Shown here piece by piece: positions 198-24,320 of a stretch of DNA of 34,850 bases (the first letter of the stretch is position 1; each line of letters opens with the position of its first letter). A program made the position numbers and the translations under genes. Under the pieces are notes generated by a model that was not told the DNA's origin, made no database searches, and was given only the letters and a program-made list of their open reading frames with translations. The stretch is from Collodictyon triciliatum (lineage: Eukaryota): NCBI GenBank assembly GCA_043381765.1, contig JBHJMP010000891.1, positions 1 through 34,850 on the forward strand, written 5' to 3'.

Positions 198-3100
198 CTA
201 TGGTTCGTATCCTGCGTTTAAGCGAGGTGATGATGCGATGGTGTGGGAGGAAACGGGATTAATCTCTTGTTCGCTGAGGATGAGGCTGCCATCGTCGAAG
301 GAGGGCGATAGACCAAGTTCTTGGCGTCTTCGTCTCTCGGCGGCCTTTTTCCATTGACGAAACCGTCGCTGTATCAGAAGTGCAGCCATCGAGTGGTTGA
401 CCTGGAGGAATAAAAGGGTGATCAGAAGTAGGCAGATAAGTAATCATGCAGAAAAGTTAAAAATGATAATAAAAATAGGGCGAGTGTGTGGGTTACAAAG
501 GGTCCTATGAAGTATTGTTGGCTGGGCTTCATGAGAGATTCGTTTTTTTCTCTCGTGATTTAGTTCCGCTCGGTTTATAAGTGGAGTGCAAACCATAATT
601 CCATCATTTTTCAGCTTCGTAAGGTTGGGAAAGGCGCGTTTACACATCCTCTCAAGGTCGTCTCTAACTTTGCTCTCAGGAAGGGTGAGATAGTTATGGA
701 TGAATAACAAGATTGTCATTATTATTATTATTGTTATTTTCTTGCATTCATCCCATTCGAAGTAATTGATTGTATCTGGTTAAAGGATATTCAACAGCTC
801 CATAAAGACGTTTTGTCAGGGCGGATAAGACCTCCAGGAAGTGGACTCTGCCCTAATGCCATATTCGTTTAAGAAGGACACATCAAATAAAGCACATTAT
901 ACAACTAGGTGACTCATTATCACTCATATTTTGGATTCAGATTATGTACCTCATGATCAGGAATTTGGACATTGCTCATGAAAACCAGCATTTCTTTCTT
1001 CGAAGAGTCTGATTTGGAGGTTAATTATGGTTTATAAAACAATCACATTAGTGTGACTACAGCGTGCTAATTAAAAAAAATAATTGAGGTTTGATAATTT
1101 GAAAATAAGAATAAGAATAAGAATAAGAATAAGAATAAGAATAAGAATAAGAAAAAGAAAAAGAAAAAGAAAAGTAACAGAAAAAAAACAAACTTGATCC
1201 TAGAGGGGGACCAACTATACGCAAAAGTTTTTCCAGCATATCCTATATACATATGTATGTGTTTTCTTGGATTTAAAATGCAAATATATACCAAACAAGG
1301 ACAACAAACTTTGAAGGAAATTATATTACTGTATAGGAGTAAAATAAAGAAAAAATATTATTATATATAACACAATATTCGATTAATAAACTACCGTTGG
1401 AATCATACTAGGGTCTGCTGGATTTGCAATATTCGTCCAAACCCGACAAAACCTATATACATTCGATAAAGTGAGTTTGTGTTTATGATTACGCGTTGCC
1501 TCTGGCAATAAAAAAAAGTAGCAATAATAATATCAAATAAATAAATAATAAATCTGTTGTCTTACTCTTCGACATGCTCTTCTTTAAGCACTGCGTTGTC
1601 CTCCTGCGATGCAACATCAAAGTTTTCCAAGATGACGGCTAATTTGATAATTATTTAAAAACAATATAGATATTCGACAAAAATACCTATTGCCTATAAA
1701 AATCTATGAGTGCGATATCACCTGTGTATATATTAATCATCACGAGAGCTGCTGTGAGGCAATAAGTTGTGAAGAATACGGCCGCTAGTATCTGATTTCC
1801 ACATGTCCCTTCCTCATAGCTACAGTCCGGAGGTTTCACTCCGCAGGAGGATTGTATGCCCGACCAGTTGTCAAAAGTTATCACCCTAAGAATGTAACGA
1901 TCGAAATTGCATTAGCAGCCAAGTCAGGGGCGACTTTTGAGGGTTATTGTATGGAGTTGACAATGTAATTTTTCGTGGTTGTTGTTTTACCTGAATAAAG
2001 TAAGAAATGACCGGTAGAAGGATGAGAAATTGGCATGGTTGTCTATGGCTCCAATAGAGTGTGCAACTTGACCAAAAAGGGACATCCCGATGACGGAGTA
2101 AATAAATATAATAAGAAATAGCAACGCTGCAATATTTGCTAACGATGGAAGGGAGTACCTATGTGCACGTGTTAAAAAAAATTAATTACATTCTGTTGTG
2201 AAGAAATTACTCAAAAGACATCTACCACTGAAAGTAATACATGCATAAATAAAGGTAGTAGGCGGAAAAAAAGTGAAGAAAATAAACAAGAATGAGGATT
2301 ATTTAAACATGAAGAATAGGAAACAACAAACATAAGTGTTCGGAACAGTTTGTTGAGTGTCTTCATCGAACGAACTAATTTGAATACTCGAAAGACCCGA
2401 AAAACGCGGAACACACGCATTACAGACATATTGATGGGAACACTCGAATTGGAAAACCGCAAGAGCACATCTAGCATATTGTGTTATGAAGATGAAAAAA
2501 ATTGTAACTAATCTACACTTCAGCTACTTGACTTATTTTTTTACATATGTATATAAAGATGATTTTTTTTCAGTACTAAACAAATGCTACCTATCAAGGA
2601 TATAAAAACAATGAAAAAATCGAACAAGTTCCACGATTCCTTAAAGTACATTCTTCCATATGCAGAAATCTTGATAATTGCCTCGATCAGGAACAGAAAA
2701 GTGAAAAGGGTGTCGAATGTATCTATGAGCAATTTTTATGTTAAAATAGAGTAGATAATGCCCAAGGAGAATCAACAAAGTGATCAAGGGATTCATAATT
2801 AATCATCACACAAGTGAAGTATCATACACCATAAAAAAATCACTTAAAACTGAATTCCATTGTCCTGACTGATCTTGATGTTGACAAGCCATCGATATGA
2901 TGTTCAAAAGTATTAACAAAGCAGACAGTTTTTCAAACGTTGTTGTACTATAAGAGATGGAAAAGTTGATAGGGAAATTATGAGATGATATATAATAGTC
3001 GAGCGACAGATACAGCCAATCTCCTTACATTTGGATTGTCTAGCTACCTGATAAGTTTGAAGCAGGCTTTTCGAATCGGATTATTGGGGCGTTTGTATTG

Positions 3101-22400: not shown

Positions 22401-24320
22401 CAAATGATTGGATTACTCAACCAAATTTTCTTAGATGCCGATTTATCAATCTGGTTAAAACCGTATCCATAGCTCTTCTGTTATTAATAATTCTTTTCAC
22501 TTCAGTTTTATTTAGTGCATTGTCTTAATAATAGGACATCTTCAACAATCAGTTACTTTTTTTTTTGTTTTTTTAGCATACAAGTAGTCACGTTATATTT
22601 CATGACACCCCTAAGATACCGTTTTATTGTTACATCGGCCAACAGCGGTTTGGTGGAAGTTTTAACTGACTGCGTCTCTATCCACCAACTTAAGAAAGGA
22701 ATCAGCACGTCGATGTCGCTCGGACAGTACTTTGAAGAGGTTTTGAATCTTTTATATTATTTTGAGTATACACAAATCCTTCATATCCAGTCCAAATATA
22801 GAGTGTCGACGAATACCAGGACATTAAGAATTCGATGGCGTCTTCAATACTGCATTAGTCCTCAGAAAATTCGATTACAGCCTCACTTGAATTTTCACTC
22901 TTATCTACTTACTTTATTCATCAAGGCATACCGAAGCCAAACTGACGACAAACTTAGACTAGCTAAGCGAAATTTTGTAGAAAGTCTCGCAGGATATTCT
23001 ATTGTATGTTACCTTCTTCAAGTAAAAGATAGGTATGCAAATGTCTATTCCTGCTTCTTTATTGCCCATGACAAACTTATTCTTAATTCACAAACTGAAG
23101 ACGATTTAACTATTCTATTCTTTTTCTTTTTCTTTTCTTTTCTTTTCTTTTTCTTTTCTTTTTCTTTTTCTTTTTCTTTTTCTTTTTCTTTTTCTTTTTC
23201 TTTTTCTTTTTATTATATGTTCTTCCTTTTTGGATTCTTTGTGAACGTAACTTAACTTGATTGAATTCAATTCACCGCTGCAGACATAATGGAAATATTT
23301 TGATTCATCTTTCTGGCCACGTCATACACATCGACTATGGTTTTATTCTTGGAATGTCACCCGGTGGAGTCAACTTTGAAGTCGCCCCCTTCAAGTTTAC
23401 CAAAGAGTATCTCGAAGTCATGGGAGGCCAAGAGTCGGAATATTTTTCGTATTTTAAACTCCTTTTTGTCCAAGGATTGCTTGAAGCCCGGTTATTATTA
23501 TTATTATTATTATTATTATTATTATTATTATTATTATTATTATTATTATTATTATTATTATTATTATTATTATTATTATTATTATTATTATTATGCGAAA
23601 ATTCCTTTAATGTCCACAAAAAGACGGTACTCTTGTAAGTCATACTAAGGTGAGTGAATCACATTTCATTGATATTTACTTTGTCTCTAATAGAAAACAT
23701 ATGGAAGACATCATCCTCCTAGCTGAAATGCTTCTCAAAGGCATTATTTGATTTGATTTGATTTGATTTGATTTGATTTGATTTGATTTGATTTGATTTG
23801 ATTTGATTTGATTTGATTTGATTTGATTTGATTTGATTTGATTTGATTTGATTTTTCTCCAAATCTATAATTCGTTGAAGTGCTGAACCATACTTTTTTA
23901 TCAATAACATCACGCGTTTTTTATTTAGGTATGCTAATAAAATAAATAAAAAAAAAGAAAGAAGGTTTTTTATATTTGCTTTCAATACTCGACACCAGTT
24001 TTTTTAAAATATGGGGCTCTGTTATAAAAATTCAGATTCGAAGCTGCCTTGTCTTCATGGAGGAGACGAAGTGATTCACAGACTTATCGAGAGATTCCAG
24101 CCTGACTTGAACGACGAGAACTTCGTATGCCTTTAATATATAATTAAAATGATACATGAGCTATTTTCCAAGTTGATTTTCTGTTTTTTTGATTACTCAA
24201 CTTTACATGTGCACTGCGAAACAGATTGTCCACGCTCAGAAACTTATATACGATAGCATCCATTGCTGGTCAACCACGCATTATGATTCATTTCAGTATT
24301 TGACCAACGGGATATATTGA
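19409..24320 (+). CDS. PI4KB: Phosphatidylinositol 4-kinase III beta (Pik1-type), ~14 exons; start codon uncertain
   Basis: Helical-domain EFYLPQL, then [84 protein letters not shown], and C-terminal [12 protein letters not shown]. Stop TGA at 24318-24320. Confidence 0.93.
20796..20972 (+). other. U12-type (minor) AT-AC intron in PI4K
   Basis: Donor G|ATATCCTTTT, branch TTACCTTGAC at 20951-20960, acceptor CAC|ATG. The joined frame [26 protein letters not shown] continues into the PI4KB-like sequence. Confidence 0.92.
21560..21660. repeat. (TTTTTC)n microsatellite in a PI4K intron
   Basis: Hexamer run. Confidence 0.93.
22463..22615 (+). other. Probable U12-type GT-AG intron in PI4K
   Basis: Donor CC|GTATCCAT, branch-like TTTCATGAC 9 nt before the acceptor TAAG|, and no pyrimidine tract next to the AG. 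Splicing restores the conserved WLKPY. Confidence 0.65.
23492..23594. repeat. (TTA)n microsatellite in a PI4K intron
   Basis: Run starts at the donor site. Confidence 0.95.
23746..23853. repeat. (ATTTG)n microsatellite in the PI4K GC-AG intron
   Basis: Pentamer run starting 5 nt after the donor. Confidence 0.95.

What the first reader, a model, noticed from the sequence alone, without database searches (positions are those of the whole stretch)
685..22615. Unusually high density of minor (U12-type) introns, suggesting an expanded minor-spliceosome intron set
Seen: two AT-AC introns with ATATCCTTT donors and U12 branch sites (685-790 and 20796-20972), plus one GTATCC-AG candidate (22463-22615). 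That is 2-3 of roughly 85 introns I modelled, or about 2-4%. Known: U12 introns are under about 0.5% of introns in most animals and plants and are absent from many protists; large expansions are rare (e.g. Physarum polycephalum). A ZMAT5-like gene is also in the window. Inference: this organism has an active and possibly expanded minor-intron complement. The sample is small and two of the three candidates are in one gene.
Basis: partly seen in the sequence, partly recalled or inferred. Interest (0 to 1): 0.78.

Follow-up and report, generated by a model that had tools for sequence, protein, structure and literature searches.

The report
Minor-type introns in a protist genome
Two introns of the rare minor (U12) type, and probably a third, sit in an ion-channel gene and a lipid-kinase gene of a little-studied freshwater protist, but one short window cannot show that such introns are unusually common in it.

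Summary
Introns 685-790 (minus strand) and 20796-20972 (plus strand) are textbook U12-type AT-AC introns. Each has a 9-of-9 donor (ATATCCTTT), a branch site matching 7 of 8 positions, 9 and 13 nt before a terminal AC, and no usable GT-AG alternative. Each gives a gap-free fit to transcript-derived Diphylleia rotans proteins.

Intron 685-790 is not in a separate gene. It lies in the C-terminal domain of the four-domain voltage-gated channel gene, a family known for minor introns.

Intron 22463-22615 is real, but its type is open. Its donor is GTATCCAT and its branch site TTCATGAC. Ordinary introns here have weak donors and similar branch sites. I put U12-type at about 0.6.

The organism is a diphyllatean (CRuMs supergroup). 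I found no paper on minor splicing in that group.

The "expanded set" reading is untested. No genome is held, the window has no snRNA gene, and no RNA contig crosses any of the three junctions. Two of about 85 introns gives a 95% interval of 0.29-8.2%.

This is a new member of a known kind. I put a genome-wide density of 1% or more at about 0.2.

The parts
685..790 (-). Intron A: U12-type AT-AC intron, 106 nt, phase 2, in the C-terminal (EF-hand-like) domain of the channel gene
   Evidence: The donor is ATATCCTTT at 782-790 and the intron ends AC at 685-686. It is the best of 4523 junctions tried, 152 against 121 for the best GT-AG. The flanks align without a gap to the Diphylleia channel protein P0134 around residues 1656-1705.
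693..700 (-). Branch site of intron A, TCCATAAC (7 of 8 to TCCTTAAC), branch A 9 nt from the 3' end
20796..20972 (+). Intron B: U12-type AT-AC intron, 177 nt, phase 1, in the PI4K-beta-like gene
   Evidence: The donor is ATATCCTTT at 20796-20804 and the intron ends AC at 20971-20972. No AG lies between the in-frame stop at 20957-20959 and 20975 (read). The junction is the best of 1956 tried, 366 against 286 for the best GT-AG. The Diphylleia protein P0121 is continuous across it.
20953..20960 (+). Branch site of intron B, ACCTTGAC (7 of 8 to TCCTTGAC), branch A 13 nt from the 3' end
22463..22615 (+). Intron C: GT-AG intron, 153 nt, phase 2, with a U12-like donor GTATCCAT; intron type undecided
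   Evidence: The junction is the best of 4184 tried, 385 against 362 for the acceptor at 22576. P0121 and P0122 are both continuous across it. It passes over three earlier AGs, including one after a long T run.
22599..22606 (+). Possible branch site of intron C, TTCATGAC (6 of 8), branch A 10 nt from the 3' end
   Evidence: A near-identical TTCATAAC serves the ordinary GT-AG intron 2590->2471.
306..10200 (-). Four-domain voltage-gated cation channel gene (modelled part; the N-terminus extends further, to about 11000). It carries intron A and at least 27 other placed introns
   Evidence: tblastn of P0134 (Diphylleia rotans transcriptome) covers the gene from domain I S1 to the IQ motif. A 371-aa block has no stop and is 51.9% identical to P0134.
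19397..24320 (+). PI4K-beta-like gene carrying introns B and C, 13 introns in all, of which 11 are placed
   Evidence: Pfam PI3_PI4_kinase. tblastn of P0121. Four GT-AG joints appear in RNA contigs of run X2. A 404-aa model across 8 introns has no stop and is 78.7% identical to P0121.
27281..27475 (-).
   Evidence: Pfam zf-U1 scores 22.8 bits against a cut-off of 22. The best PDB hit is human ZMAT5 at E 1.1e-4, ungapped, against U1C at 3.9e-3. The Atlas returns zf-U1 clusters, with a ZMAT5 cluster only at rank 11, score 0.82.
25583..25590 (-). Unresolved ATATCCTT in the sense strand upstream of the CENP-X-like exons; possible but not favoured as a donor
   Evidence: An in-frame AC acceptor near 25034 exists, but a GT-AG alternative fits too.
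25930..25937 (-). Unresolved GTATCCTT at the end of a 30-codon ATG-started frame; no acceptor could be fixed

Best explanation
The window comes from a diphyllatean protist (CRuMs supergroup, near Diphylleia). It holds two genuine U12-type AT-AC introns and one further intron that is probably U12-type of the GT-AG subclass.

Intron A interrupts the C-terminal domain of a four-domain voltage-gated channel gene. Introns B and C interrupt a PI4K-beta-like gene.

The likely mechanism is the standard one for this intron class. U11 snRNA pairs with the rigid donor /ATATCCTTT. U12 snRNA pairs with the TCCTTRAC-like branch site 9-13 nt from the 3' end. U4atac/U6atac.U5 then replace U11 and catalyse removal at AT...AC.

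What is shown: the signals, the only workable junctions, and the fit to transcript-derived orthologues. What is inferred: that a minor spliceosome exists here and does the cutting.

That is high, but it does not measure the genome. The density could be ordinary (about 0.3-0.5%) or raised.
For: Sequence: donors match 9 of 9, branch sites match 7 of 8 at 9 and 13 nt, and both introns end in AC. The published consensus is [G/A]TATCCTT and TTCCTT[G/A]AC (abstract of 10.1101/2020.10.12.336362).

Junctions:
- A and B are the top-scoring of 4523 and 1956 in-frame junctions with any dinucleotides, and the best GT-AG alternatives score 31 and 80 points lower.
- For B, no AG exists in the only stretch where an acceptor could lie.
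- The spliced models have no stops. They are 78.7% (404 aa) and 51.9% (368 aa) identical to the Diphylleia rotans transcriptome proteins P0121 and P0134.

Contrast with ordinary introns: of 36 other placed introns, none starts [AG]TATCC. Only 1 has a branch-site match with 1 mismatch or fewer, and that one lies 7 nt from the end.

RNA: the one RNA contig that reaches B has the upstream GT-AG intron removed but runs 22 nt into B. This fits the slow splicing reported for minor introns (abstract).

Phases are 2, 1 and 2, against 17 of 35 ordinary introns in phase 0.

A zf-U1 protein whose best solved relative is the U11/U12 protein ZMAT5 lies in the window.
Against: - No read or contig shows the spliced junction of A, B or C in this organism.
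- The only RNA at B is unspliced there.
- No minor snRNA gene is in the window and no genome could be searched.
- The ZMAT5 assignment is weak: E 1.1e-4 on 39 residues, with the Atlas ranking generic zf-U1 clusters first.
- Motif sets of this kind also arise by chance. One complete set (7028, plus strand) is antisense to a channel exon, and shuffles give 0.46 per window.
- For C, the donor departs from consensus at +7 and +9 and the branch site has 2 mismatches. The same kind of branch site serves ordinary introns here. GTATCC is expected about 0.6 times per 85 ordinary introns.
Confidence: 0.85

Rival explanations
1. Ordinary complement. The genome has a minor-intron density like most minor-splicing eukaryotes (about 0.5% or less). 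The window looks rich because it holds a voltage-gated channel gene, because counts this small fluctuate, and because it was chosen for showing these introns.
For: - Every human voltage-gated Na+ and Ca2+ channel alpha gene carries at least one minor intron (passages in PMC6865273 and PMC8767276), so intron A is close to expected.
- Outside the channel, 1 sure minor intron in about 47 introns has P 0.12-0.23 at densities of 0.276-0.554%.
- Only 3 sense-strand [AG]TATCC donors sit at placed junctions in the whole window.
- No further GT-AG minor introns were found, although that subclass is the majority in most species (passage in PMC10639083).
Against: At 0.276%, P(>=2 in 85) is 0.023 and P(>=3) is 0.0018. 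Two more RTATCCTT donors lie in sense near the CENP-X-like gene and remain unresolved. RTATCCTT is over-represented, 9 against 2.74 expected.
Confidence: 0.5
2. Expanded complement. Minor introns make up 1% or more of all introns in this lineage, a second large enrichment beside Physarum, here with a large AT-AC share.
For: The count is 2-3 of 39 placed introns, or of about 85. Two of them are in one non-channel gene. Nine PI4K loci of other eukaryotes span position B without an intron, and none of the 50 loci shows a minor intron at B or C. That leaves lineage-specific gain possible. At 3% density, P(>=2 in 85) is 0.73.
Against: The interval reaches down to 0.29%. There are selection and gene-family biases, and no genome-wide data. 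Enrichment above 1% is reported only for Physarum among more than 3000 genomes surveyed (abstract and passages of PMC10639083). The nine loci may be cDNA-like or intron-poor, so an absent intron says little.
Confidence: 0.2
3. Intron C is an ordinary U2-type intron whose weak donor happens to read GTATCC.
For: - Ordinary donors here are degenerate. At +3, A occurs in 23 of 36; at +4, T in 15 of 36.
- GTATCC is expected about 0.6 times per 85 ordinary introns.
- GTATCT occurs at 8582.
- TTCATAAC, 13 nt before the AG, serves the GT-AG intron 2590->2471, and short branch-to-AG distances are common.
- The donor is off consensus at +7 and +9.
Against: GTATCC together with a branch match of 2 mismatches or fewer at 8-16 nt (3 of 36 ordinary introns) is expected only about 0.05 times per 85 introns; this is my product of the figures. 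The intron skips three AGs, one of them behind an 18-nt T-rich run, and is in phase 2.
Confidence: 0.4
4. A and B are AT-AC introns removed by the major spliceosome (the rare U2-dependent AT-AC class).
For: Such introns exist (abstract of PMC1557818, seen in the listing).
Against: U2-type AT-AC introns lack the ATATCCTT donor and the TCCTTRAC branch site (my recollection of that literature). Both introns here carry them in full.
Confidence: 0.03

Closest known systems
U12-type AT-AC introns of animal voltage-gated Na+ and Ca2+ channel alpha-subunit genes (Wu and Krainer 1999, as cited in PMC6865273 and PMC8767276)
   Same: Same intron class and same gene superfamily (four-domain voltage-gated channels). 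A single minor intron sits among many major ones.
   Different: The position differs from the examples I could read. Rodent Scn5a intron 3 and Cacna1c intron 13 lie upstream of exons 6 and 21 (passages), whereas intron A lies in the C-terminal domain. The 1999 paper is not held, and the position tables are in supplements I could not see, so a shared position is not excluded.
Expanded minor-intron set of Physarum polycephalum (Larue, Elias and Roy; 10.1101/2020.10.12.336362)
   Same: A protist outside animals and plants with minor introns.
   Different: Physarum has more than 20,000 minor introns with transformed splice signals and efficient splicing (abstract). Here there are 2-3 introns with classical signals, no genome-wide count, and the one RNA contig at B is unspliced there.
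Minor-intron-rich fungi (Basidiobolus meristosporus 0.554%, Rhizophagus irregularis 0.272%; PMC10639083)
   Same: Lineages once thought poor in minor introns that turned out to have human-like densities.
   Different: Those figures are genome-wide counts (n = 249 and 205). This is one 35-kb window.
ZMAT5 (U11/U12-20K), a protein of the minor spliceosome (PDB 8r7n and others)
   Same: N-terminal U1C-type zinc finger, with an ungapped 39-residue match at E 1.1e-4.
   Different: Only the finger is matched. U1C matches too, at 3.9e-3. I could not find the rest of the protein in the window.

Membership tests
U12-type (minor) spliceosomal intron | Extended 5' splice site [G/A]TATCCTT at the first intron bases | tested here: met
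   A and B match 8 of 8 and carry the following T as well. C matches 7 of 8 (GTATCCAT). The consensus is as given in the abstract read.
U12-type (minor) spliceosomal intron | Branch site TTCCTT[G/A]AC close to the 3' splice site | tested here: met
   A has TCCATAAC at 9 nt and B has ACCTTGAC at 13 nt, each 7 of 8. C has TTCATGAC, 6 of 8, at 10 nt, which is inconclusive for C. Of 36 ordinary introns, 1 has a match with 1 mismatch or fewer.
U12-type (minor) spliceosomal intron | AT-AC or GT-AG termini at the junction that restores the reading frame | tested here: met
   Each is the best junction of 4523, 1956 and 4184 tried.
U12-type (minor) spliceosomal intron | Actually removed from the mRNA of this organism | tested here: inconclusive
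One X2 contig reads 22 nt into B. Removal is inferred from the transcript-derived proteins of Diphylleia.
U12-type (minor) spliceosomal intron | Dependence on U11, U12, U4atac and U6atac snRNPs | not testable with these tools
   No genome is held and the window has 0 Rfam matches. The only protein lead is a weak ZMAT5-like zinc finger.
Expanded minor-intron complement (Physarum-like) | Genome-wide minor-intron share far above about 0.5% | not testable with these tools
   Only the window is available. 2 of about 85 gives a 95% interval of 0.29-8.24%.
Expanded minor-intron complement (Physarum-like) | Mostly lineage-specific (gained) intron positions | tested here: inconclusive
   9 metagenome PI4K loci span position B without an intron. 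4 have a U2-type GT-AG intron 6 nt from position C. None of the 50 loci is a close relative.
ZMAT5 / U11-U12 20K | U1C-type zinc finger plus the rest of the ZMAT5 architecture | tested here: inconclusive
   The finger is present. A ZMAT5 cluster appears only at rank 11 in the Atlas. No downstream exon could be assigned.

The most novel reading that the evidence does not exclude
This diphyllatean (CRuMs) genome carries minor introns at several percent of all introns. It would be a second independent large expansion beside Physarum. Unlike Physarum it would keep classical splice signals, have an unusually high AT-AC share, and include introns gained at lineage-specific positions such as those in the PI4K gene.
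Probability: 0.2. Interest if true: 0.75.

Novelty: new member of a known kind. Interest (0 to 1): 0.4.

Why it matters
CRuMs branch near the base of Amorphea, and little is known of their genomes. These introns are direct sequence evidence that minor (U12) splicing persists in that supergroup. My searches found no paper that addresses this: U12 + Collodictyon gave 0 papers, and 'minor spliceosom' + CRuMs gave 1, on Polycomb. The pan-eukaryotic survey does not mention CRuMs or Mantamonas in its main text.

If the local frequency held genome-wide, it would be only the second known large enrichment of minor introns. It would be a useful contrast to Physarum for asking why minor introns are normally so rare. 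If it does not hold, the finding is an ordinary case of retained minor introns, one of them in the gene family best known for them.

Tried and rejected
- Whole-genome tests could not be run because no genome is held. Rfam on the window found 0 families, which says nothing about the genome.
- Sequencing runs: no RNA holder is listed on record. X2 proved to be RNA by its four GT-AG joints.
The 4.2-kb part laid next gave no cover of the B or C junctions and did not include A.
- A search for relatives of the channel's domain IV exon found none. The representative search with the domain III S1 exon then gave 23 proteins, including P0134.
- The metagenome scan for PI4K gave 50 loci, none close (43-76% identity in the most conserved exon). 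It therefore could not test conservation of the C donor.
- Wu and Krainer 1999 is not held. PI4KB + 'minor intron' gave 0 papers. Lists of human minor-intron genes are in supplements I could not open.
- Other RTATCCTT sites rejected as donors:
  - 2603 (minus strand) is coding, and the true intron there is GT-AG 2590->2471.
  - 7028 (plus) and 34088 (minus) are antisense to coding exons.
  - 12647 (minus) and 18072 (plus) have no branch site or acceptor.
  - 8542->8446 lies inside the intron 8582->8420.
- The region upstream of the CENP-X-like exons could not be modelled. The enumeration was ambiguous, the two exon-like frames had no meaningful PDB or Atlas hit (best E 0.75), and Pfam found nothing.
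- Pfam on 10 further frames at 26.5-34.5 kb gave 0 families, so that part of the window adds nothing to the intron count.
- I dropped 4 channel junctions from the count as uncertain: 9333->9167, 8292->8038, 3885/3873->3787 and 1178/1189->846. I also left out two PI4K introns between 23486 and 24035, all helicase introns, and the channel's N-terminal and II-III linker parts.
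Full report
**What the window is.** The window is eukaryotic, about 35% G+C and full of microsatellites. Recognisable genes:
- a four-domain voltage-gated cation channel on the minus strand, from about 11000 down to 306;
- an SNF2/RING helicase of the HLTF/RAD5 kind on the minus strand, 13350-17500;
- a PI4K-beta-like kinase on the plus strand, 19397-24320;
- a CENP-X-like gene on the minus strand, whose last exon hits only CENP-X chains (5 of 5 PDB hits, best E 1.3e-3);
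- a zf-U1 zinc-finger exon on the minus strand, 27281-27475;
- an M28 peptidase on the plus strand.

The nearest proteins for both the kinase and the channel come from the Diphylleia rotans transcriptome in EukProt, and Rigifila ramosa is next for the channel. My spliced kinase model is 78.7% identical to the Diphylleia protein over 404 residues. A channel block is 51.9% identical over 368. The organism is therefore a diphyllatean of the CRuMs supergroup, but not D. rotans itself. Small shares of the window's words occur in two freshwater metagenome runs.

For A and B the donors read ATATCCTTT. The branch sites (TCCATAAC, ACCTTGAC) match the consensus in 7 of 8 places and lie 9 and 13 nt before a terminal AC. 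The consensus I compare with, [G/A]TATCCTT and TTCCTT[G/A]AC, is quoted from the abstract of the Physarum preprint.

I scored every in-frame, stop-free junction around each site against the Diphylleia proteins, whatever its terminal dinucleotides.
- A: the AT-AC junction scores 152, the best GT-AG 121, with 4523 junctions tried.
- B: the AT-AC junction scores 366, the best GT-AG 286, with 1956 tried.
- C: the stated junction scores 385 against 362 for the acceptor at 22576, which follows a long T run, with 4184 tried.

For B there is no AG at all between the in-frame stop at 20957-20959 and 20975, so a GT-AG solution is impossible.

**A correction to the anatomy.** Intron A is not in a small separate gene. 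Following the channel's reading frame past domain IV S6 and laying the Diphylleia channel on the window shows that the exons flanking A encode the channel's C-terminal domain. An IQ-type motif follows further on, at 306-404. So one minor intron is in the channel gene and one or two are in the kinase gene.

**How much the motifs alone prove.** Less than they seem to.
- RTATCCTT occurs 9 times against 2.74 expected, and 0 of 100 shuffles reach 9.
- With my permissive rule (donor, branch site with 1 mismatch or fewer, AC or AG 8-21 nt on, all within 300 nt), dinucleotide shuffles give 0.46 complete sets per window, and 3 of 300 shuffles reach the observed 3.
- One of the three observed sets (7028, plus strand) is antisense to a channel exon.

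What makes A and B secure is the reading frame and the orthologue fit, not the motifs by themselves.

**RNA.** No run is on record as RNA. X2 proved to be RNA because its contigs carry four GT-AG joints in the kinase gene: 19554/19837, 20459/20634, 22737/22924 and 23030/23282.

One X2 contig joins 20459 to 20634 and then runs on to 20817, 22 nt into intron B. That RNA had lost the upstream major intron but still held B. The contig ends about 20 nt before the intron's A runs, so priming of the cDNA inside an unspliced precursor is a possible cause (inference). This fits the slow splicing described for minor introns (abstract). It is a single contig, and it is also the only RNA evidence at B, so the spliced form is unobserved in this organism.

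**Ordinary introns here, and what that means for C.** I placed 39 introns with homology or RNA support: 28 in the channel gene and 11 in the kinase gene. The 36 that are not candidates have weak donors: GT, then A in 23 of 36 at +3 and T in 15 of 36 at +4. They have little polypyrimidine tract, and their branch-like motifs lie close to the AG.

From their base frequencies, GTATCC is expected about 0.007 times per intron, or 0.6 per 85 introns. A branch match with 2 mismatches or fewer at 8-16 nt occurs in 3 of 36. One of those is TTCATAAC in the plain GT-AG intron 2590->2471. So neither feature of C is decisive alone.

Together they should coincide only about 0.05 times per 85 ordinary introns (my product of the two figures). 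C also skips three earlier AGs. I therefore rate C as U12-type at about 0.6.

The phases of A, B and C are 2, 1 and 2, while 17 of 35 ordinary introns are in phase 0. The chance of no phase 0 among three is 0.136, which is weak support.

**Other candidates.** The remaining RTATCCTT sites are coding, antisense, or lack an acceptor. Two sites, 25590 and 25937 on the minus strand, lie in sense just upstream of the CENP-X-like exons. For 25590 an in-frame AC acceptor exists near 25034, but a GT-AG alternative with a GTATTC donor fits as well. For 25937 no acceptor could be fixed. The frames there have no recognisable relatives. They stay open.

**The density claim.** Two of about 85 is 2.35%, with a 95% interval of 0.29-8.24%. 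Three of 85 is 3.5%, with an interval of 0.73-9.97%. At the human density of 0.276% (passage in PMC10639083), P(>=2) is 0.023 and P(>=3) is 0.0018. At 0.554%, the highest fungal value, P(>=2) is 0.081.

Three things weaken this.
- Voltage-gated channel genes are the classic carriers. All human Na+ and Ca2+ channel alpha genes have a minor intron (passages). Leaving the channel out, one sure intron in about 47 has P 0.12-0.23 at those densities.
- The window was chosen because it shows these introns.
- The denominator is not solid. I placed 39 introns, and about 4 kb of the window has no recognisable gene.

There is also an oddity. In most species GT-AG minor introns outnumber AT-AC ones (passage). 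Here I find two AT-AC introns and at most one GT-AG. Either this lineage is rich in AT-AC introns or this is small-number noise.

**Are the positions old or new?** I could not tell. Fifty PI4K loci from metagenomes contain no close relative. Nine of them span position B without an intron. Four have a U2-type GT-AG intron two codons from position C, not at it. None shows a minor intron at either place. The minor introns of rodent Scn5a and Cacna1c that I could read about lie far upstream of the C-terminal domain. Wu and Krainer 1999 is not held, and the intron tables are in supplements I could not open.

**The ZMAT5-like gene.** The exon has a U1C-type zinc finger: Pfam zf-U1 scores 22.8 bits against a cut-off of 22. 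Human ZMAT5 is the best solved relative, at E 1.1e-4 and ungapped, ahead of U1C at 3.9e-3. The Atlas puts generic zf-U1 clusters first and a ZMAT5 cluster at rank 11. I could not find the rest of the protein. It is a lead, not proof of a minor spliceosome.

**Novelty and verdict.** The introns are classical members of a known class. What is new is the lineage. My searches found no paper joining U12 or minor splicing with Collodictyon or CRuMs; the one hit is about Polycomb. The pan-eukaryotic survey does not mention CRuMs or Mantamonas in its main text, though its supplements may differ.

The inference of active minor splicing is sound but indirect. The expansion is possible and untested, at about 0.2.

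Noticed in passing
window 19376-19378 (plus strand), run X2 contig 2: The RNA contig that covers the start of the PI4K gene carries 20 letters before 19376. They occur nowhere in the 34.8-kb window, even with up to 2 mismatches, and the genome has an AG just there. This could be a trans-spliced leader or a distant 5' exon.
   Followed up: partly
window 9167-9333 (minus strand), channel domain I S4/S4-S5: The junction that best fits the Diphylleia protein has no GT, GC or ATATC donor. The best-scoring cut is GA...AG (237), against AT...AG (224) and GC...AG (218). It is either a non-canonical intron or a base error in a GTAAGC-like donor.
   Followed up: partly
window 25583-25590 and 25930-25937 (minus strand): Two more perfect RTATCCTT motifs lie in the sense strand just upstream of the CENP-X-like exons. 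One follows a 30-codon frame that starts with ATG. Neither could be joined to an acceptor with confidence.
   Followed up: partly
window 24691-25050 (minus strand): A CENP-X (MHF2)-like gene. The last exon matches only CENP-X chains in the PDB (5 of 5 hits, best E 1.3e-3). I infer a GT-AG intron from about 24966 to about 24793.
   Followed up: partly
window 25175-25591 (minus strand): An open frame of 138 codons in 37% G+C DNA. It has no Pfam or Atlas hit and only chance-level PDB matches (best E 0.75). It may be an unrecognised exon or gene between the CENP-X-like exons.
   Followed up: partly
window 7028-7226 (plus strand): A complete U12-like signal set (ATATCCTTAA, CCCTTGAC, then AG or AC) lies antisense to channel exons. 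It is a useful example of a motif-only false positive.
   Followed up: yes
window 22556 (plus strand), run X3: A freshwater-metagenome contig matches 22472-22618 with no substitutions but has four extra T in the T run of intron C. The same or a very close strain therefore occurs in that sample.
   Followed up: no
channel pore loops near 8600, 6560, 3700 and 1860 (minus strand): The four pore loops read SLDNW, TGQGW, TFDDW and TFDNW. By my recollection of where the selectivity-filter residue sits in Ca2+ and Na+ channels, this would be an unusual D/Q/D/D filter. The Diphylleia protein differs at repeat II.
   Followed up: no
whole window, e.g. 4770-5139, 13097-13198, 14375-14521, 18467-18630, 23492-23594: Many long microsatellites sit inside introns and between genes. 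They blocked the laying of reads on long stretches.
   Followed up: no
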